From a virus: a stretch of DNA of 64,000 bases. How positions within the stretch are numbered: the first letter of the stretch is position 1; every line of letters starts with the position of its first letter. The stretch is from IMG/VR virus record IMGVR_UViG_3300045988_182793, positions 1 to 64,000 of that record; one strand, 5' to 3'. A program made the translations under genes and the position numbers. Below the pieces are notes generated by a model. It made no database searches. It was not told the origin of the DNA and saw nothing but the letters and a program-made list of their open reading frames with translations. Below, in pieces: positions 11,749 through 57,272 of this stretch.

Positions 11749-12083
11749 GGAGAACAAAAAAAGCGATGCAAGGATGTATTTGTAATAAATATAGCGGCTG
11801 TTTTTGGTATTCGCGAAACAACACGAAATTAAACGAAACGCGAAGAGAATACAAGAAAAGATGAATGAAATCCGGCTGAGGCGGATAATACTTGTGCCGA
11901 GTAGTTTAAAGTCCGGACAATGGGACAGCTAAAGTGGTAAAATGAAACTAGGAATACCTAAAATCAGATTTAACCGAAAAAACAAAAACCATGAATGAAT
12001 AATTGGTTGCTAAAAAGTAACCGCTCGCTTTTATACCCAAACCAACAAATGACCCAAATCTGTTTAGGAAGGATAGATACAAA

Positions 12084-14249
12084 ATGGCAAGAAGGAAAAC
12101 AAACGACTTGGAAAATCAGATGTCGCTCATGGACATGATGGCATCGGAAAGCCCCGAATATACCGAAGAAGGCCCGGAAGAACTCTTGGACCCCGGCGAG
12201 GACATGGGGGACAGTGAAGGGCAGACGGATAAGCCCTTCAAACTCGTGGCGAACAAGACCACGAAGGCAAAGGTGAGCATCTCCACGCAGGCGCTGAATG
12301 TTGTGAAGGCGGTATATGCTGATACGGTCGAAACGAATTGGGAAGAGTTGTTTGACGGGTTCGACAGACTCTATGCTATCACTTTTTCGTCCGGTATCGA
12401 GTTCGTGAATAAGGTCATCAACAAGTTCTCGTATGCGGAAGTCGTGTTCGGCTGCGAGAAAATCATCGCCAACGACATCGCTGCCATCATGTCGGTGCAA
12501 ATCGACAGCGTGCAGCGGCTCGCTAAGTCTAAGTCGGCAGGGAACCTTGCGAACCGCCTCGATGACGGGTCCTTGCAGCTGTATGTATCGCGGGACACGA
12601 AATCGCACGAGAAAATCTTTATCTTGGAGAGCGCTGACCATAAGCGTGTCCGAGTCATCACCAGCAGTGCGAATATGTCGGCATCGGCGTTTTGCGGCAT
12701 TCAGCGAGAGAATATCGTCTGCTTCGATGACGAGGCGGCATTTTCGCATTACAAGGTTCTGTTCGAGACCTTCAAGGAGACCTGCTCCGACAATGTCTCC
12801 TATAAGGCAGTCGTGAACACCATGAACCAGGAAGATTATCTGAAAGAGAACATCAAAGAAGTGCCCGTCTTTCAGTCTATTGAAAAGCAGAAGCTTGTCT
12901 TTCTGGAACAGGCACAGCCTGAGGATGAGGTCGAATACGAGATAGTTGCCGATGTCAAGAAAATGCAGGAACTCGTCAAGCCAATCATGCCTAAGATGCC
13001 GGTACAGGCGAATCGTATTGTAGTGGCAGCGGAACCGATGCGCGTTTTCGGGAAACGATATACCGAGGTGCGGCGTGTGGCAGCTGAGGCAGTTAAGCAG
13101 CTCCCGAAATTACATATCGACTATGATGCCGGGACCATGACCTTCAACGACGAGAATATCGACCTCAATCCGAATCTCAGCGAGGTGGCAAAGAACATCG
13201 AGAGCATCCAGAAGTTCTTCTCAGGCATGGACTACTTTTACGGCGATGTCGAACAGGCCAAGAAGGACTACTTCAAGTACATGACCTGGTATCTGGCTAC
13301 CCCGTTCATGGCGTACCTTCGGTATTTTGCGTCAAGGAACAACTACGATACGAAGCTGTTCCCGATGTACGGCGTAATTTACGGTGACTCAAACGGCGGC
13401 AAGACGACCTTTATAAAATTTCTTGTCAAACTCATGTGCGGTGAGACCGTTAAGATGAACACGACGGAGGATTTCACAGCCACAAGAATCGACGGCCTCA
13501 AACGAGTTTGTGAGGGGCTGCCGCTGAACATCGACGACCTCGCCAAGACCCAGTTTCAGAACCATTCAGAACGGGTAATCAAGAACGATGAATGGGGTAT
13601 CTCGGACAGGCTCGTGAACTATCCTGCTGTATCTATCACATCGAATAAAATTACCTCGCTGACAAAAGACCTCTCGAAACGTGCTATCATCTGTCGAATT
13701 GGTGCTAAAATCGACAACGAGCGCGGTGCCAAGAACTCGAAGCGTGTGAATGAGAGTATGTCGGAGCTGACAACCGCGTTCTATGGCGAATATGTCCGCC
13801 GAATGCTTGTTTGCATCGATGAGATGACGACGGAAATGCGTGAAAATGCGAATGGCAAGGAATACTTCCCGGATATCTTCCACGCTTCGTCTAGTGTCAT
13901 TGCAGATATCTTCGAGGCATGCGGAATCGATTTGCCGGACTATGTGCGTATCCTGTACTATAACGACTATATGGGTGATGAGAGCATTGGTCGTGCTGCA
14001 ATTGAGAAAATCGAACTGGCATGGCAGGCTGACCCGAGCAAGTTCCGGGTTGATAAGAAGCAGAACAGGCTCATTTACTCCTATCCGCCGGATGGACCGT
14101 GGTACGAACTGAAATACATTGCAGATGAGCTGCCGAACTCCCTCGAAGCAGAGATTTCTGGCGGCAACCAGCTTATCATGAACTACGAGCAGGCACAGGA
14201 ATTGTTCGGCATCAAGTTTCGGCGCTGGCTGGGCATCTTTAACCTCTAA
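12084..14249 (+). CDS. large P-loop NTPase, C-terminal SF3-helicase/D5-P4-primase-like ATPase; N-terminal PLD-like (HxK...GSxN-like) motif
   Basis: Walker A YGDSNGGKTTF, Walker B LNIDDL; SHEKIFILESADHKRVRVITSSAN resembles HKD nuclease motif; RBS AGGAAGGA. Confidence 0.6.
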   Translation: MARRKTNDLENQMSLMDMMASESPEYTEEGPEELLDPGEDMGDSEGQTDKPFKLVANKTTKAKVSISTQALNVVKAVYADTVETNWEELFDGFDRLYAITFSSGIEFVNKVINKFSYAEVVFGCEKIIANDIAAIMSVQIDSVQRLAKSKSAGNLANRLDDGSLQLYVSRDTKSHEKIFILESADHKRVRVITSSANMSASAFCGIQRENIVCFDDEAAFSHYKVLFETFKETCSDNVSYKAVVNTMNQEDYLKENIKEVPVFQSIEKQKLVFLEQAQPEDEVEYEIVADVKKMQELVKPIMPKMPVQANRIVVAAEPMRVFGKRYTEVRRVAAEAVKQLPKLHIDYDAGTMTFNDENIDLNPNLSEVAKNIESIQKFFSGMDYFYGDVEQAKKDYFKYMTWYLATPFMAYLRYFASRNNYDTKLFPMYGVIYGDSNGGKTTFIKFLVKLMCGETVKMNTTEDFTATRIDGLKRVCEGLPLNIDDLAKTQFQNHSERVIKNDEWGISDRLVNYPAVSITSNKITSLTKDLSKRAIICRIGAKIDNERGAKNSKRVNESMSELTTAFYGEYVRRMLVCIDEMTTEMRENANGKEYFPDIFHASSSVIADIFEACGIDLPDYVRILYYNDYMGDESIGRAAIEKIELAWQADPSKFRVDKKQNRLIYSYPPDGPWYELKYIADELPNSLEAEISGGNQLIMNYEQAQELFGIKFRRWLGIFNL

Positions 14250-14299
14250 TATGCATGGCAGGTTCTTTTCGGAGCCTGCCTTTTTATTTCGCAAAAATA

Positions 14300-14335
14300 G
14301 TTGCCCATTTGTGCGAATTGCAGACAATCAGAAAT
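14300..14335 (+). promoter_or_regulatory. copy 5 of conserved promoter motif (TTTGTGCGAATTGCAGACAAT)
   Basis: consensus match. Confidence 0.6.
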
Positions 14336-14411
14336 AAAGCGTAAAGCAAAGAAGCTGAGTACCATCTCAAAATTTGCAAGCAAAAAGTTGATTGAGCGAA
14401 ATTGGAATATC

Positions 14412-14684
14412 ATGAAAGACTACGGCAACGGCTATTCCATTGAGGAGCTTGCCGCAAAATACAGGTTGAGCGTCCGTACATGCTATCGAGCGTTAGACGA
14501 CGCGAAACAGAAGGCCAGAATTCAGTTGGCGCAGGTAGAGGATGCCAGAAAAGCTGAAATCCTTGCGGCATACAAGAACAGTGTCCCTCTCAAGGAAATG
14601 ATTGCGAAATTCAACGTGGCAGGTCAACAACCCCGCCTAAACCGGTTCGCCGGTTATAGACGGGGCTTGCGGGGCAACCCGTAA
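14412..14684 (+). CDS. small HTH-repeat regulator, C-terminus replaced by IS left-end sequence
   Basis: first unit DYGNGYSIEELAAKYRLSVRTCYRAL matches the repeat unit of genes 51988-53981; second unit cut where IS hairpin begins (~14633). Confidence 0.55.
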   Translation: MKDYGNGYSIEELAAKYRLSVRTCYRALDDAKQKARIQLAQVEDARKAEILAAYKNSVPLKEMIAKFNVAGQQPRLNRFAGYRRGLRGNP

Positions 14685-14989
14685 GCCCGGTTGATTAGCC
14701 TCAGTGAACGGTAACTTCGGTTGCTGCGAACTCCGTTATGCATTTGATGAGCAATCATCTTCATAATATAGGCACCCCGATATGCTCCACAAGTGTCGGG
14801 CTTTGCGGGCAGTGTATGTATCAATGGCGCAAGCCGTTGATATGTATTACGTTAAAAATCTCTAAGGGTAGGAGATGTGCGGCTGCCATGCCGAAAGGCT
14901 AAAACAGTGCATAACATTGGCGAAGTGGACCACAGGGCGCAACCCCTGACTTATAGTTTCATTACTATTTTACGAAAGGAGTACCTTGC
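14630..14989 (+). ncRNA. candidate omega-RNA of IscB (5' of iscB, spanning IS left end)
   Basis: ~300 nt non-coding, GC-rich with multiple stem-loops, in the position where IscB omega-RNAs are encoded (established for IscB family). Confidence 0.45.
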
Positions 14990-16387
14990 ATGAGCACTTG
15001 CGTTTGCGTTCTCAGCAACAGTGGTGAACGCTTAATGCCTACCTTCCGTCTTGGCAAGGTGCGCCATCTTCTGAAAGACGGAAAGGCTAAAATCGTTAAG
15101 CATCACCCGTTTACCATCCAGCTGCTGTATGACAGCAAAACGAACACGCAGCCTATTGAAATCTGCGAGGATGTGGGCTACAACTACATCGGCATCAGTG
15201 TGAAAAGTCAATCTCACGAGTATGTATCTGCTCAATATGATACATTACAGGACGAGAAAGCCTGCCACGACAGTTGTCGTAAGTTGCGCCGTACACGCAG
15301 AAACAGACTGCGTTACCGTAAACCGCGCTTCGATAACCGCAAGCGCGGCGAAGGTTGGCTTGCTCCTTCTTTGAGGCATAAGAAAGAACTCAATGTCAAC
15401 GTTGTCAAGATGTATTGTGCAGTAATGCCCATTACTCATGCAACAGTTGAGGTTGGTTCTTTCGACACAATGCTTGTAAAAGCAATTCAGGAAGGAAAAG
15501 CCATTCCTGAGGGAGCAGACTATCAAAAAGGTCCTCGCTACAATTTGGCAACCTTGCGTGAGGCAGTGTTCTACCGTGATAATTACACCTGCCAAGTTTG
15601 TGGACGCAAAGTCGCGGATGGTGCCATTTTACATATGCACCACATGTTCTACTGGAAAGGTCGTCACGGCGACAGCCTGAACGAACTTCTAACGGTATGC
15701 GAAAAGTGCCATACACCAGCTAACCATCAAAAAGGCGGTAAGCTTTATGGCTTCGGAGAAAATGTAAAGTTTGCCGACCTTTCCGGTGCGGCTTTTATGA
15801 ACACCGTTAGGTGGCAAATTGTCAATGAACTCTATGCTGCTTTTGGAAAAGATTTTGTCACCGTCACTTATGGCGCAATGACAAAAGAAAAGCGTATCGC
15901 ACTTCGACTTGAAAAAAGCCATAATAACGACGCGTATGCAATGGGCGAGTTTCATCCAAACTGCCGCTGTACGTTTGAACATTATGAAAAGGTAAGGCGT
16001 AATAATCGCATCCTTGAAAAGTTTTATGATTCTCGCTACATTGACATTCGTACAGGAGAAATAGCTACTGGAAAAGAACTCTTCAACGGTAGAATTAACC
16101 GTAACCACAAAAAGGATTCGGAAAATTTGCACAGATACCGTGGCAAGAGGACATACGCAGGGCATCGCGCTCTATTACGCAAAAAGGTAAACCTTAATCC
16201 GGGTGATTTAGTCTCTCTCAACGGAGAAGTTCTCGTTGTGCATAGCACTCATACCAATAAAAAGGGTGCTGTAAATGTAGAATTCAAAACACCCGGAAAA
16301 AGCGGTCAAAAATCTGCAAGCCTTAAAAAACTTAAAATTGTAAAAGCAGCAGATTCCATGCATTCTGCATGGGAAAAAATATCTTAA
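14990..16387 (+). CDS. iscB: IscB RNA-guided nuclease (PLMP, RuvC-I/II/III, RRXRR bridge helix, HNH)
   Basis: N-term VLSNSGERLMPT...GKAKIVKHHPFTIQLLY; ICEDVG (RuvC-I); RRNRLRYRKPRFDNRKRGEGW; CQVCGRK...HMHH...CEKCH (HNH); SHNNDAY (RuvC-III). Confidence 0.85.
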   Translation: MSTCVCVLSNSGERLMPTFRLGKVRHLLKDGKAKIVKHHPFTIQLLYDSKTNTQPIEICEDVGYNYIGISVKSQSHEYVSAQYDTLQDEKACHDSCRKLRRTRRNRLRYRKPRFDNRKRGEGWLAPSLRHKKELNVNVVKMYCAVMPITHATVEVGSFDTMLVKAIQEGKAIPEGADYQKGPRYNLATLREAVFYRDNYTCQVCGRKVADGAILHMHHMFYWKGRHGDSLNELLTVCEKCHTPANHQKGGKLYGFGENVKFADLSGAAFMNTVRWQIVNELYAAFGKDFVTVTYGAMTKEKRIALRLEKSHNNDAYAMGEFHPNCRCTFEHYEKVRRNNRILEKFYDSRYIDIRTGEIATGKELFNGRINRNHKKDSENLHRYRGKRTYAGHRALLRKKVNLNPGDLVSLNGEVLVVHSTHTNKKGAVNVEFKTPGKSGQKSASLKKLKIVKAADSMHSAWEKIS

Positions 16388-16517
16388 TCATTTAAAGAAA
16401 GGAGTAGCAGGGTATTTGTGCTAACTGAGTACACTTCAAATTGCCTCTTGGTTAGCGCATTCCTCACCGCCTAAGTCGCAAGCGACTATAGACGGTGTAC
16501 CCTGCGCACATAATTTG

Positions 16518-17156
16518 ATGAAATGGATTGTGAAGCAAACCAAATCGAAAGGATATGAGTTCACCTTCGATATCGTGAAAGGCAAGGCCGTTATCGGGCA
16601 GGCACACTATATCCCGAAATTGCTACGGCAGGGTTATGGCATCCGGCTGAATGATTCCAAGTTCCTGCTGCAATACATGCCAGCTGCTGACGCAAGGGCG
16701 TACATGCGCGGCATCAACACGAAAGATATTCTGAGACACCCTTTTGCTATCCGTGAGAACAACTGCACGGTAGGCGAGATTTCCGTCATCCATACAAAAA
16801 CCGGATTCCTCCAAGGATACAATTCTATCGCCATGCAGCTGTATGGCGAGGAATACCAGAGCTACAAAATTGGTTTTGGAAAAGAAGGAGTATGCTGTCC
16901 CGTATTTCTTGGCGGACAGCAAATCGCCCAAATCAATAAGAGCGCGGTGGTCAAGGACAATCTGGATGAATACCTGATTTACGCGGTCAATGAAATGGCT
17001 CTGCTGCCGTCCGTTATGTTCGCCATTTACATTGACGGGATATACTACGCAAACCGAGGCGTGTATGTGGATGACGCAACGACTATCAACTGCGAATACA
17101 GCTTGAACGAGGAAGTCCTGTCCCACTACGACCCGAATTTTGTCAAAGGACTATGA
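16518..17156 (+). CDS. hypothetical protein (212 aa)
   Basis: ORF only. Confidence 0.45.
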   Translation: MKWIVKQTKSKGYEFTFDIVKGKAVIGQAHYIPKLLRQGYGIRLNDSKFLLQYMPAADARAYMRGINTKDILRHPFAIRENNCTVGEISVIHTKTGFLQGYNSIAMQLYGEEYQSYKIGFGKEGVCCPVFLGGQQIAQINKSAVVKDNLDEYLIYAVNEMALLPSVMFAIYIDGIYYANRGVYVDDATTINCEYSLNEEVLSHYDPNFVKGL

Positions 17157-17187
17157 CTCCGATAACTGGTATTCACAGACAATATCA

Positions 17188-17223
17188 TGTTGCGAAACTG
17201 TGCGAATCGCAGACAATTAAAAG
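17188..17223 (+). promoter_or_regulatory. copy 6 of conserved promoter motif (ACTGTGCGAATCGCAGACAAT)
   Basis: consensus match. Confidence 0.6.
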
Positions 17224-17256
17224 TGAATGAATTACAAAAGCTACAGAGGATAAACA

Positions 17257-17853
17257 ATGAGCTATGAACCCATTATCACACCGGGCAGGAATTTCTTTCT
17301 TGTCTCGACGGAGTACAAAGAGAGCTGCTCTGCCTGGTGCCGCAAGCAAATTAGAGCGACACTGAGGACCTGTCAGGGACGAGTCATCATCATTGATGCA
17401 ACGGGCGAGTACGCGGACTTGGCGCTTGAACATGACAGATTGATTCGAGAGAAAATCCCGTCCATCATTTATCGGTATAAGCTGGTGGACGGGAAACCGT
17501 ATATTGCTCATGTCATTGAAGTTGATACGGAAGCAAATGAAGCACCGCACCTGATTGTATACGATATCAGCCGGACCATAATCACCAGCTGGAAGGTCGG
17601 CGTAGAGGCAATTGATAAAATCCTGCAATCCTATGCCGTGATGCGGGACAGTGAAATCGCGTGGTTGTATGTTCCGCTGGACTTATATACCAATGTCAAG
17701 CCTGAAACCGAATCCTGGAACATTCTGGAACGAACTATCAAGGGTAATGAAGGCAAGCTCATGACAGTACTGACGACTCGCAAATTCACCATTGGGATGG
17801 TCCAGCGCTGTTTGCATATGACAAAAAATAAACTTTTGGAGGATAGCAAATGA
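17257..17853 (+). CDS. hypothetical protein (198 aa)
   Basis: ORF with RBS; no motif. Confidence 0.5.
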   Translation: MSYEPIITPGRNFFLVSTEYKESCSAWCRKQIRATLRTCQGRVIIIDATGEYADLALEHDRLIREKIPSIIYRYKLVDGKPYIAHVIEVDTEANEAPHLIVYDISRTIITSWKVGVEAIDKILQSYAVMRDSEIAWLYVPLDLYTNVKPETESWNILERTIKGNEGKLMTVLTTRKFTIGMVQRCLHMTKNKLLEDSK

Positions 17854-18797
17854 CCAATGAACAGCTGAAAATCGCATTGACGGCGAATGCCGTTACCAAA
17901 CAAACCCGAAACCATTTTGGATTCAGTGACCCGTGTGGAAAAACGCTAGAAGAATACAACAAGTCCGCGATGCTGTGCTGCATGACAGCGGCGCAGAGAA
18001 TGAACACGCCGGGTTTTGAGCGTGTTTTGGCTGCGCAGATTTTTCCCTGCTTTACCATTGGCTGCTGGAATCAGACGAAGACGGTCTATGATTTTGACTA
18101 CGAGTTTCAGAAAATGCTGATGGATACGGATGACGTGGCAATTCATCAGGATATCCTGCAGCGACTCCCGGTTCGTGATTTCTTTATCCCGGTGTATGAC
18201 AGCTACGACTACAACGGTATGTTCGTGCATGTGGAATTCGACGAAAAAGAGAAAACCACAGCTTTCGGTATCGTTCTTGTCGGCCCCACTAAGGGCAGCC
18301 ACGATGATTTCACGTTCCTGACTCTGCCTGCCTGGGCCAAAGAAAACCAGAGTTTGACGGAAGCAACCCGGAGTACGAAAGAATACCTGGAAAAGGCAGC
18401 AGGGCAGCGGCAAGTAAATGGTATCAGCGTACCGGCTGTGATGGAAGCAGTTCCTTCGGTCTTTGACGGCGGCACACCTTATGTCCGGCTGGCAATCCTG
18501 TGCGCCAACTATCTTGCCAGCAAGAACCCAGATGTCCGCCTTGAAACTTCCAAAAAGCGTGACCGCCCGGTATTCGTGTTTCAGGGAAAGGCACAGCGAA
18601 TCAACGTCAAGACATATACCGTTGGTGAGAATGCGGCCAAAGAATACAAAAAGAATGGGGAAGGCAACCCCCCCCCGCTGGCGGCATTACTGGTGCGGCA
18701 ATGGCCGGGAACGCCGGGAATGCAAGTTTATTTACTGATGGCGGTGAGGGGGAATCATGGCTCCCCCTACTTATCAGGACCCGATTGGGTTCTATGA
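17850..18797 (+). CDS. hypothetical protein (315 aa)
   Basis: ATGA overlap with upstream gene, RBS GGAGGA. Confidence 0.5.
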   Translation: MTNEQLKIALTANAVTKQTRNHFGFSDPCGKTLEEYNKSAMLCCMTAAQRMNTPGFERVLAAQIFPCFTIGCWNQTKTVYDFDYEFQKMLMDTDDVAIHQDILQRLPVRDFFIPVYDSYDYNGMFVHVEFDEKEKTTAFGIVLVGPTKGSHDDFTFLTLPAWAKENQSLTEATRSTKEYLEKAAGQRQVNGISVPAVMEAVPSVFDGGTPYVRLAILCANYLASKNPDVRLETSKKRDRPVFVFQGKAQRINVKTYTVGENAAKEYKKNGEGNPPPLAALLVRQWPGTPGMQVYLLMAVRGNHGSPYLSGPDWVL

Positions 18798-19464
18798 ATG
18801 GTTCGATGACCTTCCTTATGCTATCCAGGATAGTATTCTGAAACACCTGCCGCATATGGAAGGCGAGGAATGGCTCATTGTCATTATCCTTGCAGCTCTT
18901 CTTCTGATGATTCTGGTTTCAGCGTATCTGGGCTTTGCAAGACATAATGTCAAAAAAACGAGTGAACGACTCAACGCTTTGAAAGAGCTGAACAACACGA
19001 CTGAATTCATGCCGGTCGAGGCGCAGTACCGCTACTATCTACGTTCTGATACGAAGCTGGAATACGAGGAGTTCTCGCTCCCGAAATTCTTCCGCCGCGA
19101 AGTGAGAGAAAACTTTAAGCTGTTCAACACTCTTCTTGGCAATGCTCGGGCAAACACGGTATTGTATGAAACATACGGCCGCGAAATCCAGGAACTCCCG
19201 GATTGGACAGAATCGGATGACGATTGCGGGCGGCATATCCCGTTCTTTCTCTACCACAACATCGAGAAAGAGTTGTACGATGAAACTGTCCTGGACTGCC
19301 CTGTAACGAGCCCTGAGTTTGTCTGTACGAAAAGCTATCTGCCCAAAGATGCCAAAGAGCCGATTGAGACGGAAGAAACCTATACACTGGAGGAACTGGA
19401 AGAGTACATACGCCGCTTGAAGGTTGCAGCCGATGTCAAGAAGAACAGCCAGAACGCAGGCTGA
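18757..19464 (+). CDS. hypothetical membrane protein (1 TM, 235 aa)
   Basis: EEWLIVIILAALLLMILVSAYLGF hydrophobic helix. Confidence 0.5.
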   Translation: MAPPTYQDPIGFYEWFDDLPYAIQDSILKHLPHMEGEEWLIVIILAALLLMILVSAYLGFARHNVKKTSERLNALKELNNTTEFMPVEAQYRYYLRSDTKLEYEEFSLPKFFRREVRENFKLFNTLLGNARANTVLYETYGREIQELPDWTESDDDCGRHIPFFLYHNIEKELYDETVLDCPVTSPEFVCTKSYLPKDAKEPIETEETYTLEELEEYIRRLKVAADVKKNSQNAG

Positions 19465-38020: not shown

Positions 38021-38379
38021 TTACAAAGAAATTTTTGGGTGGTGAGGCAGTTGACCAGCTATGCGAGCGGCTTAGAATTATAAGTGCAATAAGCAAACAC
38101 ACATCGACACAGTCAACAACCCCGCCAAAACCGGCTGAACCAGTATTATAAGACTGCCACCGGGCAACGGGTTGCCAAGCGTGTCAACAATGGGGATTTC
38201 CCGTACAATGTTTACGATGCCAACGGCGGTATCGTGAAACCCGAAACCAAGAAAACCAAGAAAGCTGGGTAATGCCATCAACTTGAGTCTTTGCAGCTGT
38301 ATGGATGTTGCAAAGCTCAGATATAATCCCGGAATTCTGATAATACGCATGGAAAATTGTTGCAAGGAGGACGAAAGCT

Positions 38380-56951: not shown

Positions 56952-57196
56952 CAATTGTTCTCAGGAAGAGGAACGGCTCCTGAGACATCAAGGTTTTCCT
57001 TTCCCCAATCTTGGTCGCATGGCTTCATTTGAGCTGACACAGGTGAAGCGTGAAAATCATCCGTTTCATAGTAATATCCTTCCTTTCTTTGGCGCGGGTA
57101 ACTCCGCGCCAGCCGTCCAAGCAAACAGCCTCCACGCGGCGGACGGTGGACAACAGATGTTTCCGTGTTCCGGGCATCTGGCTAATGTTTGTATTT

Positions 57197-57272
57197 GCTG
57201 GTTTAGCTCAGCTGGTAGAGCAACTGATTTGTAATCAGTCGGTCATCGGTTCAAGTCCGATTTCCAGCTCCA
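57197..57272 (+). tRNA. tRNA-Thr (anticodon TGT); acceptor has two U-U mispairs
   Basis: cloverleaf traced by hand; D and T arms canonical. Confidence 0.6.

What the first reader, a model, noticed from the sequence alone, without database searches (positions are those of the whole stretch)
14412..16510. IscB (OMEGA) IS200/605 element with matching end hairpins inserted into the 3' part of an HTH-repeat regulator gene
The 465-aa protein has every IscB hallmark: PLMP, RuvC-I D in ICEDVG, RRNRLRYRK bridge helix, HNH with CxxC..HH..CxxCH, RuvC-III HNNDA. Both element ends carry CCGCCTAA-hairpin-TATAGACGG. The left hairpin lies inside the 14412 ORF, so that regulator's C-terminal 17 aa are IS-encoded. 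The 300-nt structured non-coding stretch 14690-14989 is where an omega-RNA is expected. A presumably active RNA-guided nuclease sits inside a phage regulatory gene.
Basis: partly seen in the sequence, partly recalled or inferred. Interest (0 to 1): 0.65.

Follow-up and report, generated by a model that had tools for sequence, protein, structure and literature searches.

The report
IscB guide-RNA transposon truncating phage regulator
A small mobile element that encodes an RNA-guided DNA cutter (IscB, an ancestor of Cas9) and its guide RNA sits in a gut-phage genome, where it has replaced the last third of a regulator gene; it is a genuine but ordinary member of a known element class, belonging to a family that has spread to dozens of sites in related phages.

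Summary
The core identification holds. Window 14623-16517 is a non-autonomous IS200/IS605-type element. It carries an intact 465-aa IscB (Pfam RRXRR 3e-45 plus HNH; OgeuIscB E 3e-32, catalytic residues aligned). An omega-RNA matches Rfam HEARO over 14623-14935 (59.8 bits, E 5e-11, below Rfam's cut-off of 83). Two cognate subterminal hairpins are present; no transposase is.

Three details need correcting.
- The omega-RNA starts at the first base of the element and includes the left hairpin.
- The junction is not clean. Eighteen related phage loci without the element carry about 222 nt of regulator sequence in its place, so the window has lost the Mor-like third helix-turn-helix and half of the second.
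- Five bases (ATGAA) at the right junction are in neither the canonical element nor the empty alleles. They create a new start codon for the downstream gene.

The exact 23-nt element start occurs in 81 IMG/VR stretches with 45 distinct left flanks. Insertion is immediately 5' of ATGRA, the TTCAT motif already shown for Geobacillus IscB, and often at gene starts. IscB is under purifying selection (dN/dS 0.07-0.16). Flank shuffling, miniature copies and cargo swaps are common.

Verdict: new member of a known kind, moderately interesting.

The parts
14623..16517 (+). Whole non-autonomous IscB/omega-RNA IS200/IS605-type element, 1895 nt. In IS convention the window's left end is the transposon RE and the right end is the LE.
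   Evidence: The left boundary is the same base in every context. The right boundary comes from clean occupied/empty pairs at other sites (L052 vs L034, L066 vs L102, L047 vs L070) and from tail alignments.
14607..14622 (+). Predicted omega-RNA guide, AAATTCAACGTGGCAG. It is regulator coding sequence immediately 5' of the scaffold.
   Evidence: Position relative to the first HEARO model base. Meers et al. state that the guide lies 5'-adjacent and outside the RE. The 16-nt length is by analogy with OgeuIscB (own knowledge). It has a single match in the window.
14623..14935 (+). Omega-RNA scaffold (HEARO-type). It probably extends to the stem at 14933-14948.
   Evidence: Rfam RF02033: 59.8 bits, E 5.2e-11, model positions 1-211. 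Compensatory pairs are seen across copies. A stem-loop lies at 14933-14948.
14631..14665 (+). Subterminal imperfect hairpin of the transposon RE. The boundary motif GTCAA (14623-14627) is the reverse complement of TTGAC.
   Evidence: The boundary lies 8 nt from the hairpin foot.
14990..16387 (+). iscB gene, 465 aa, intact.
   Evidence: Pfam RRXRR 3.3e-45 and HNH 2.2e-6. PDB IscB hits 1.5e-33 to 3e-32 with the catalytic D, E, HH and H..D aligned. dN/dS 0.07-0.16.
16400..16505 (+). Element-borne Shine-Dalgarno-like AGGAG (16400-16404), followed by a closing stem GCAGGGTA (16407-16414) / TACCCTGC (16498-16505) that encloses two hairpins.
   Evidence: It repeats iscB's own RBS context (D7). RNA and DNA folds have z about -3.4 to -3.8. 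It is conserved in both subfamilies, with a G-C to A-T change in type B.
16465..16497 (+). Subterminal imperfect hairpin of the transposon LE. The 20-nt LE terminus runs 16498-16517.
   Evidence: The hairpin stems covary between type A (CACCG/CGGTG) and type B (CCCCA/TGGGG).
16518..16527 (+). Tandem target/TAM motifs. ATGAA (16518-16522) is absent from empty alleles. ATGGA (16523-16527) is where homology to empty alleles resumes.
   Evidence: The TTCAT TAM of GstIscB is reported.
14412..14684 (+). Truncated regulator ORF: 70 native aa plus 20 IS-derived aa. The intact form is 147 aa with three HTH repeats.
16518..17156 (+). Downstream conserved 212-aa gene. Its start is now ATG AAA TGG, against TTG CAA TGG in empty alleles. 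Its native SD was lost with the deletion.

Best explanation
Window 14623-16517 is a transposase-less IS200/IS605-family element. In IS convention the window's left end is the transposon RE and the right end is the LE.

How it works, by analogy with characterised IscB elements:
- Transcription reading through from the co-oriented regulator gene yields an omega-RNA. Its roughly 16-nt guide is the flanking regulator sequence (14607-14622) and its scaffold is 14623 to about 14950.
- The 465-aa IscB binds this RNA.
- A Y1 TnpA supplied in trans would recognise the two subterminal hairpins. It would excise the top strand between the ATGAA motif on the right (TTCAT in IS orientation) and the GTCAA end on the left.
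- IscB/omega-RNA would then cut the resealed empty joint (guide plus ATGAA), and recombination would restore the element.

This particular copy is not a clean insertion.
- Its LE side lies immediately 5' of ATGGA in the first codons of the downstream gene.
- It carries 5 extra bases, ATGAA. These were most likely captured from a previous site that had tandem motifs.
- The extra bases rebuild an in-frame ATG.
- Its RE side is joined about 222 nt upstream, at a spot followed by AAGGAT in intact alleles.
- The regulator has thereby lost its Mor-like C-terminal HTH.

The deletion probably arose in one of two ways: recombination between two copies inserted at the two motif-like sites, or a TnpA end-joining reaction to the upstream motif.
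For: Shown directly:
- IscB identity and aligned catalytic residues.
- HEARO hit that starts at the exact boundary base, with compensatory pairs among copies.
- Hairpins unique to the two ends.
- Presence/absence polymorphism. The element is present at this site in L001, L004 and L019, and the same right junction is seen in L002, L003, L018 and L023. It is absent in 18 loci.
- Clean insertions with no duplication at other sites, immediately 5' of ATGRA.
- 81 IMG/VR stretches and 45 distinct left flanks.
- All 35 full-length copies carrying this IscB have an intact iscB, with dN/dS 0.07-0.16.
- Right-junction sequence identical to L098/L055 through GATGAAATGGA, although a different gene follows there.
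- Flank shuffling at several other sites (L063, L076, L090, L048, L002 vs L098).

From the literature:
- The omega-RNA is bounded by the RE with the guide outside it.
- The GstIscB TAM is TTCAT.
- Elements are biased to the same orientation as the upstream gene.
- TnpA can pick alternative boundary motifs and capture flanking sequence (Meers et al.).
Against: - No cognate TnpA was found in the window. The Y1 TnpA genes seen in related contigs (L068, L060) sit in IS605 elements with different hairpins.
- The HEARO score is below Rfam's gathering cut-off (59.8 vs 83).
- No intermediate was found, either an element with the 222 nt retained or a full regulator followed by the element, in IMG/VR or JGI metagenomes.
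- AAGGA differs from the usual ATGRA at position 2.
- The nearest copy at another site is only about 92% identical, so the move is old and the 'captured ATGAA' step is inferred.
- Expression, cleavage and transposition were not tested.
Confidence: 0.88

Rival explanations
1. Phage-to-phage homing. The window's IscB/omega-RNA cuts the intact regulator allele of co-infecting relatives: guide match followed by AAGGAT. Repair from the element-bearing genome then copies in the element together with the 222-nt deletion. The occupied allele would thus spread as a gene drive without needing TnpA.
For: - The guide AAATTCAACGTGGCAG matches intact alleles perfectly in L015/L016 and with one mismatch in most others.
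- The adjacent AAGGA is one base from ATGGA.
- The occupied allele recurs nearly unchanged in several metagenome datasets.
- No cognate TnpA was found.
- Non-restorative homing between co-infecting phages is discussed as a theoretical possibility.
Against: - GstIscB is reported as highly sensitive to TAM mutations.
- 15-16 of 19 motifs seen after left flanks in empty alleles have T at position 2.
- Empty alleles remain the majority (18 loci).
- Homing does not explain how the deletion allele first formed.
Confidence: 0.12
2. A simple insertion into a pre-existing short allele. An ancestor already lacked the third HTH and already started the downstream gene with ATGAAATGG. The element then inserted cleanly between ...GTGGCAG and ATGAA.
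For: The left and right flanks joined together give a canonical site, with ATGAA directly after the insertion point. Second-codon variation occurs naturally at another site (ATGCAG vs ATGAAG, L037 vs L070).
Against: - None of the 18 element-free loci has the short allele or ATGAAA.
- The flanks are otherwise 97-100% identical, so two changes in six bases exactly at the junction are unlikely to be chance.
- The cut falls in the middle of the second HTH repeat rather than at a domain border.
- Junction identity with L098/L055 extends into the 'flank'.
Confidence: 0.1
3. A domesticated or decaying IscB locus that no longer moves. In this reading the gene is kept for a phage function, such as RNA-guided attack on competitors or regulation, rather than as a transposon.
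For: - There is strong purifying selection on IscB.
- The family appears phage-restricted. The exact 23-mer is absent from 185,579 GTDB representative genomes, and only one MAG contig carries relatives.
- No cognate TnpA was seen.
Against: - There are 45 distinct left flanks, with clean presence/absence pairs and miniature derivatives that keep both ends.
- Both hairpins are intact and covary between subfamilies.
- The guide differs at every site, as expected for a mobile element.
Confidence: 0.1

Closest known systems
ISGst-type IscB elements of Geobacillus stearothermophilus (Meers et al. 2023, bioRxiv 10.1101/2023.03.14.532601)
   Same: - Non-autonomous IS200/IS605 element.
- Omega-RNA upstream of iscB, bounded by the RE, with the guide outside.
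- Target/TAM TTCAT, which is ATGAA in iscB orientation.
- Co-orientation with the upstream gene.
- Protein-less PATE-like relatives exist.
- Boundary slippage that can capture flank.
   Different: - It resides in a phage lineage rather than a bacterial chromosome.
- No cognate TnpA has been identified.
- This copy is tied to a flush 222-nt deletion and a 5-nt captured motif.
- It also accepts ATGGA.
OgeuIscB / omega-RNA (PDB 7XHT, 7UTN, 8CSZ)
   Same: Domain order and catalytic residues align, and the RNA is of the HEARO class.
   Different: The sequence relationship is distant (E about 1e-32, mostly over the N-terminal 320 aa). It is 465 aa against 496. The TAM inferred here, (A)TGRA, falls within but is narrower than NWRRNA.
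HEARO RNA, Rfam RF02033
   Same: The full-length model alignment starts at the element boundary and lies upstream of an HNH/RuvC ORF.
   Different: It scores 59.8 bits against a gathering cut-off of 83, with long insertions in two stems.
IS608 / ISDra2 (IS200/IS605 'peel and paste' elements)
   Same: - Subterminal imperfect hairpins.
- No terminal inverted repeats and no target duplication.
- Insertion 3' of a short motif.
- The cleavage sites lie 20 nt 5' of the LE hairpin and 8 nt 3' of the RE hairpin (IS608 geometry is from own knowledge).
   Different: There is no tnpA. The accessory gene is iscB on the opposite strand convention, not tnpB.
IscB-like 'HNH endonuclease' genes in deposited phages (Clostridium phage c-st, Clostridioides phage pCD1602_4, Staphylococcus Silviavirus, Ralstonia phages)
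   Same: These are IscB homologs carried in phage genomes.
   Different: Identity is at most 38%. They are present in only 30 of 50,697 records. The window's phage has no DNA-level relative in that collection.

Membership tests
IscB (OMEGA RNA-guided nuclease) | N-terminal PLMP/RRXRR region with the RuvC-I aspartate and an arginine-rich bridge helix | tested here: met
   Pfam RRXRR 3.3e-45 over residues 5-181. EDVG aligns with IDPG of the solved IscB chain 11hr_A. RRTRRNRLRYRK is present.
IscB (OMEGA RNA-guided nuclease) | HNH insertion, with RuvC-II glutamate and RuvC-III H..D | tested here: met
   Pfam HNH 2.2e-6. HMHH aligns with HYHH, VEVG with LELN, and HNNDAY with HYLDAY.
IscB (OMEGA RNA-guided nuclease) | RNA-guided, TAM-dependent DNA cleavage | not testable with these tools
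   This needs biochemistry or a plasmid-interference assay.
HEARO / IscB omega-RNA (RF02033) | Structured RNA immediately upstream of iscB on the same strand that matches the covariance model | tested here: met
   E 5.2e-11, model positions 1-211, window 14623-14935. Five predicted pairs have compensatory changes among 9 copies.
HEARO / IscB omega-RNA (RF02033) | Score at or above Rfam's curated gathering threshold | tested here: not met
   59.8 bits against 83, and no hit in the gathering-mode scan. Meers et al. used a minimum of 15 bits plus context for such RNAs.
IS200/IS605 family | Subterminal imperfect palindromes at both ends, with no terminal inverted repeats | tested here: met
   Hairpins at 14631-14665 and 16465-16497 in the same orientation. 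The stems covary between subfamilies.
IS200/IS605 family | Insertion next to a conserved 4-5 nt motif without target-site duplication | tested here: met
   Clean pairs L052/L034, L066/L102 and L047/L070. ATGRA follows the insertion point in 12 of 19 empty alleles, and N-T-G-R-A in 15-16 of 19.
IS200/IS605 family | Y1 (HUH) TnpA transposase in the element | tested here: not met
   There is no room for one in the element and no tblastn hit in the window. The element is therefore non-autonomous, as about 98.5% of iscB loci are.
IS200/IS605 family | Clean insertion of this particular copy | tested here: not met
   About 222 nt of host sequence are missing and 5 nt are extra.
Mor-type transcription activator (the interrupted gene) | C-terminal Mor-like HTH domain | tested here: met
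   The intact allele hits Pfam Mor at 1.6e-12 over residues 92-139. That part is deleted in the window, where only a 0.0017 sub-threshold hit remains.

The most novel reading that the evidence does not exclude
The most novel reading not excluded is a phage-adapted IscB transposon family that homes on the ATGRA of gene starts. Three features would make this work:
- Each copy carries a portable Shine-Dalgarno sequence clamped by a stem that brings it near the host start codon, which keeps such insertions survivable.
- Its end reactions remodel phage genes through flush guide-side deletions that re-target the omega-RNA.
- Motif capture can create new start codons.

The window copy could then also drive itself, and its deletion, into co-infecting relatives by cutting their intact regulator allele.
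Probability: 0.2. Interest if true: 0.7.

Novelty: new member of a known kind. Interest (0 to 1): 0.45.

Why it matters
IscB elements are well characterised in a few bacteria, but their life in phages is almost undescribed. This lineage offers natural material for study: occupied and empty alleles, miniature and cargo-swapped derivatives, and recombinant flanks.

With such material one could test three things:
- whether OMEGA nucleases mediate homing between co-infecting phages;
- who mobilises transposase-less elements;
- how insertions between a ribosome-binding site and a start codon are tolerated.

The protein is also a compact, apparently active IscB with a defined ATGRA motif.

Tried and rejected
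- Megablast of 12000-19000, and tblastn of the 721-aa neighbour, against GenBank phages: no match.
- Gathering-threshold Rfam scan: no HEARO hit. It was found only in E-value mode.
- Second copy of the element in the window: only a 23-nt scar at 38112 and a 28-nt scar of another family at 3495-3522(-). Neither has a HEARO signal.
- Search for intermediates of the deletion. A full regulator followed by the element gave 0 hits in IMG/VR and 0 in JGI metagenomes. An element followed by AAGGATATTGC gave 2 chance hits in IMG/VR and 0 in metagenomes.
- Exact element start in GTDB representative genomes: none.
- Microhomology-mediated deletion. It predicts GTGGCAGTCAAC, but GTGGCAGGTCAAC is observed, so it was rejected by reading the sequence.
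- The idea that the two downstream genes (MKWIVKQ and MKWNVF) are alleles: rejected, blastp E 0.35.
- TnpA search used an IS200 TnpA sequence recalled from memory. It found Y1 transposases in L068 and L060; the L068 one was confirmed by Pfam, L060 rests on tblastn only. Their elements have different ends.
- Covariation test of the closing stem: MAFFT misaligned the two subfamilies by one column, so no formal pair count was made.
Full report
**Observation**

The region was read directly and its ORFs listed. ORF 14990-16387 (+) encodes 465 aa.
- Pfam gives RRXRR (3.3e-45, residues 5-181) and HNH (2.2e-6).
- A search of solved structures returns IscB chains as the top hits: 11hr_A at 1.5e-33 and OgeuIscB 7xht_A at 3.2e-32.
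- The printed alignment (to 11hr_A) places EDVG on IDPG (RuvC-I Asp), VEVG on LELN (RuvC-II Glu), HMHH on HYHH (HNH) and HNNDAY on HYLDAY (RuvC-III).
- CCGCCTAA and TATAGACGG each occur only twice in the 64 kb, at 14633/14655 and 16467/16487 on the + strand.

**The RNA**

At Rfam's gathering threshold nothing is reported here. In E-value mode the HEARO family (RF02033, the RNA now called the IscB omega-RNA) aligns end to end, model positions 1-211, to 14623-14935 (+) with 59.8 bits and E 5.2e-11. The gathering score is 83.

An alignment of nine copies that differ by up to about 20% gives a consensus fold in which five predicted pairs keep pairing through changes on both sides, for example CCCGA/TCGGG against CTTAC/GTGAG.

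By analogy with described IscB elements, the guide is the roughly 16 nt just outside the boundary, 14607-14622 (AAATTCAACGTGGCAG). Meers et al. state that the scaffold derives from the transposon RE and the guide lies 5' of it, outside the element. They conclude that transcription must start outside the element, and they report a bias for a co-oriented upstream gene. Here the upstream regulator gene is co-oriented. No promoter-like site is found inside 14200-14990 on the + strand.

**Relatives and the junction**

Using the downstream 213-aa ORF as query, 27 related IMG/VR loci were fetched.
- Three of them (L001, L004, L019) have the element at the same place, 99.3-99.8% identical.
- Four more (L002, L003, L018, L023) show the same right junction.
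- Eighteen have no element there.

In the empty alleles the left flank ...AACGTGGCAG continues AAGGATATTGC... for about 222 nt to ...GGAGTTTTGCA, and then ATGGATTGTGAAGC. In the window...AACGTGGCAG is followed directly by GTCAACAACCCC. The right side reads ...CACATAATTTG ATGAA ATGGATTGTGAAGC.

The insertion is therefore not clean. About 222 nt of host DNA are missing, and the five bases ATGAA (16518-16522) are in neither the empty alleles nor the canonical element end.

The intact regulator is 147 aa with three HTH repeats. The third repeat is the one that matches the Mor activator family (1.6e-12, residues 92-139). The window's protein keeps 70 native residues, is cut inside the second repeat, and ends with 20 residues read from the omega-RNA DNA.

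The native Shine-Dalgarno sequence and TTG start of the downstream gene lie in or next to the lost segment. In the window that gene starts ATG AAA TGG, against TTG CAA TGG in empty alleles.

**A family of elements**

The exact first 23 nt of the element occur in 81 IMG/VR stretches, with 45 distinct left flanks.

There are two subfamilies by right end:
- type A, as in the window (...TATAGACGGTGTACCCTGCGCACAWAWTTT);
- type B (...TATAGATGGGGTGTCCTGCTCCATAATT).

Their hairpin stems covary: CACCG/CGGTG against CCCCA/TGGGG.

Clean occupied/empty pairs define the ends and show no target duplication:
- L052 vs L034: ...GACAAG|ATGGACGCG
- L066 vs L102: ...AAAGGGC|ATGAAAAAAATG
- L047 vs L070 (right junction only): |ATGAAGTGG; on the left side 12 nt are missing.

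Independently of how I located the ends, the sequence that follows each left flank in empty alleles starts with ATGRA in 12 of 19 sites and with N-T-G-R-A in 15-16 of 19. In IS orientation this is TYCAT. TTCAT is the motif that Meers et al. report as the wild-type TAM of GstIscB; TAMs also mark TnpA's insertion site. The element thus behaves like the known class.

Because ATGRA is a frequent gene start, copies are enriched at starts.
- 19 of 23 distinct right flanks open an ORF of at least 40 aa, against 42% of all ATGRA motifs in the window (p 7e-5).
- 14 of 45 left flanks have an SD-like 4-mer 4-16 nt upstream, against 11% background (p 2e-4).

**Function and selection**

All 35 full-length copies of this IscB have an intact ORF of 456 or 465 aa. 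Between copies, dN/dS is 0.07-0.16 at dS up to 1.5.

No Y1 transposase is encoded in the element or the window. A tblastn with an IS200 TnpA sequence recalled from memory finds Y1 transposases only in L068 and L060; the L068 one is Pfam Y1_Tnp at 3.5e-45, L060 rests on tblastn only. They lie next to tnpB-like ORFs (no Pfam check) in IS605-type elements with different hairpins. Which enzyme mobilises the family is therefore unknown. Meers et al. report that only about 1.5% of iscB genes have a nearby tnpA.

**How the window's junction arose (inference)**

The window's element belongs to the CACATAATTT sub-branch. Its nearest non-orthologous copies (about 92% identity) sit before an unrelated gene that starts ATGAA(A/G)TGGAATG. 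That flank has tandem motifs, ATGAA then (A/G)TGGA. The window's right junction is identical to the L098/L055 junction through GATGAAATGGA.

The simplest reading has two steps:
1. LE cleavage once used the outer motif, so ATGAA became part of the excised DNA.
2. The element then inserted 5' of ATGGA in TTG CA|A TGG of the downstream gene, where the captured ATGAA recreates an in-frame start.

Meers et al. showed experimentally that TnpA can choose an alternative boundary motif. They noted that this could capture sequence outside the native ends.

The missing 222 nt are bounded by AAGGAT on the left and ATGGAT on the right, which are two motif-like sites. Two mechanisms give this product:
- homologous recombination between two direct copies inserted at those sites;
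- a TnpA reaction that joins the RE to DNA beyond an upstream motif.

Recombination between copies clearly happens in this group:
- L002 and L098/L055 share the same upstream DNA and the same 259-nt element remnant but have different downstream genes.
- L063 and L076 combine the left flank of one site with the right flank of another.
- L090 lacks 767 nt that begin with a perfect ATGAAA.
- L048 and the L047 site lack 12 nt flush with the RE.

I could not find either intermediate in IMG/VR or JGI metagenomes, so the order of events is unresolved.

**Rivals**

A pre-existing short allele is unlikely. No element-free locus has it, and two substitutions in six bases at the junction contrast with 97-100% identity in the flanks.

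Homing into co-infecting phages cannot be excluded.
- The guide matches intact alleles perfectly in L015/L016.
- The adjacent AAGGA differs from the usual motif at the position that is T in most sites, and GstIscB is reported to be sensitive to TAM changes.
- A recent review treats such non-restorative homing between phages as theoretical.

**Comparison and novelty**

This is an IscB/omega-RNA IS200/IS605 element of the kind characterised in Geobacillus and in OgeuIscB. It has the same motif, the same RNA placement and the same non-autonomy.

What is less usual:
- Setting. The family is multi-copy in a lineage of large gut phages. The window also has 17 tRNAs and an HDV-like ribozyme.
- Distribution. 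The exact 23-mer is absent from 185,579 GTDB representative genomes, and only one 141-kb 'Lachnospiraceae MAG' contig carries relatives.
- Rarity in deposited phages. IscB homologs of at most 38% identity occur in only 30 of 50,697 GenBank phage records, usually annotated as HNH endonuclease or hypothetical protein.

I rate it a new member of a known kind.

**A further hypothesis**

Downstream of iscB, both subfamilies keep a strong SD-like sequence (GAAAGGAG, a repeat of iscB's own RBS context). It is followed by a stem, GCAGGGTA/TACCCTGC in type A and GCAGGA/TCCTGC in type B, that closes around the LE hairpin. This leaves 9-12 nt to the host ATG.

The arrangement could re-supply a ribosome-binding site to genes whose own SD the element has displaced. 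In the window the SD was deleted. This idea is untested, and the stem might equally serve transposition as DNA.

Noticed in passing
window 38112-38134 (+): A 23-nt copy (1 mismatch) of the element's first bases, GTCAACAACCCCGCC(A)AAACCGG, with no HEARO signal. The same site carries a partly deleted element in L084/L088, so this looks like the scar of an older insertion.
   Followed up: partly
window 3495-3522 (-): 28 nt identical to the start of a second HEARO/IscB element family, GTCAATAACCCACGACTAAAGTCGCGGG. A full copy with an IscB beginning MQYVYVLNKHGEPLMP is in L004 from 325. In the window these bases supply the last codons and the stop of ORF 3504-4094(-), and no IscB or HEARO follows.
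   Followed up: partly
L081:3107-4864 and L101; L054:5294-7452 and L071: These elements share the window element's first 225 nt and a type-B right end but carry different cargo. L081/L101 carry a 381-aa TnpB (Pfam OrfB_IS605, Cas12f1-like TNB). L054/L071 carry a different 512-aa IscB. This is cargo swapping between OMEGA nuclease types on shared ends.
   Followed up: partly
L022:9112-9332, L042, L060, L078, L105: Miniature derivatives of 220-670 nt that keep the first ~125-225 nt of the omega-RNA end and the right end but have no iscB (PATE/MITE-like). L022's copy lies at the position equivalent to window 20649/20650, and the DNA downstream of it differs from the window.
   Followed up: partly
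L068:5669-6085 and L060:~6839-7160: Y1 TnpA (Pfam Y1_Tnp 3.5e-45 in L068; L060 by tblastn only) next to a tnpB-like ORF (judged from its N-terminal sequence, no Pfam check), in related phage contigs. These IS605-type elements have end hairpins unlike those of the IscB element. Whether they can mobilise it in trans is unknown.
   Followed up: partly
L002:4738-4996, L098:~5976-6330, L023:1-184: Decayed states of the same right junction. L002 keeps only the last 259 nt of the element. L098/L055 have the same remnant and upstream DNA before a different gene. L023 has iscB, but the omega-RNA region is replaced by unrelated sequence.
   Followed up: partly
window 16400-16414 and 16498-16517: A conserved SD-like AGGAG plus a closing stem just inside the right end. 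It leaves 12 nt to the ATG of the downstream gene, whose own SD was deleted. It may be an element-borne ribosome-binding site.
   Followed up: partly
window 57112-57269 and 57.2-63.4 kb: An HDV-like ribozyme (RF02682, 46.6 bits against a gathering score of 44) ends 4 nt before a tRNA. It heads a region with 17 tRNA genes.
   Followed up: no
window 12084-14249 (+): A 721-aa protein with an N-terminal PLD-like nuclease signature (RE_NgoFVII / PLDc_2, weak) just upstream of the regulator. It has no tblastn match in GenBank phages.
   Followed up: no
window 943-2124 and 2239-3303 (+): Two adjacent paralogous ORFs with lipoprotein-like signal sequences (LSLAAC) and a shared repeated core.
   Followed up: no
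L067:~3790-3820: The right-end hairpin is a chimera of a type-B 5' arm and a type-A 3' arm, so the stem no longer pairs. This is evidence of recombination inside the hairpin.
   Followed up: no
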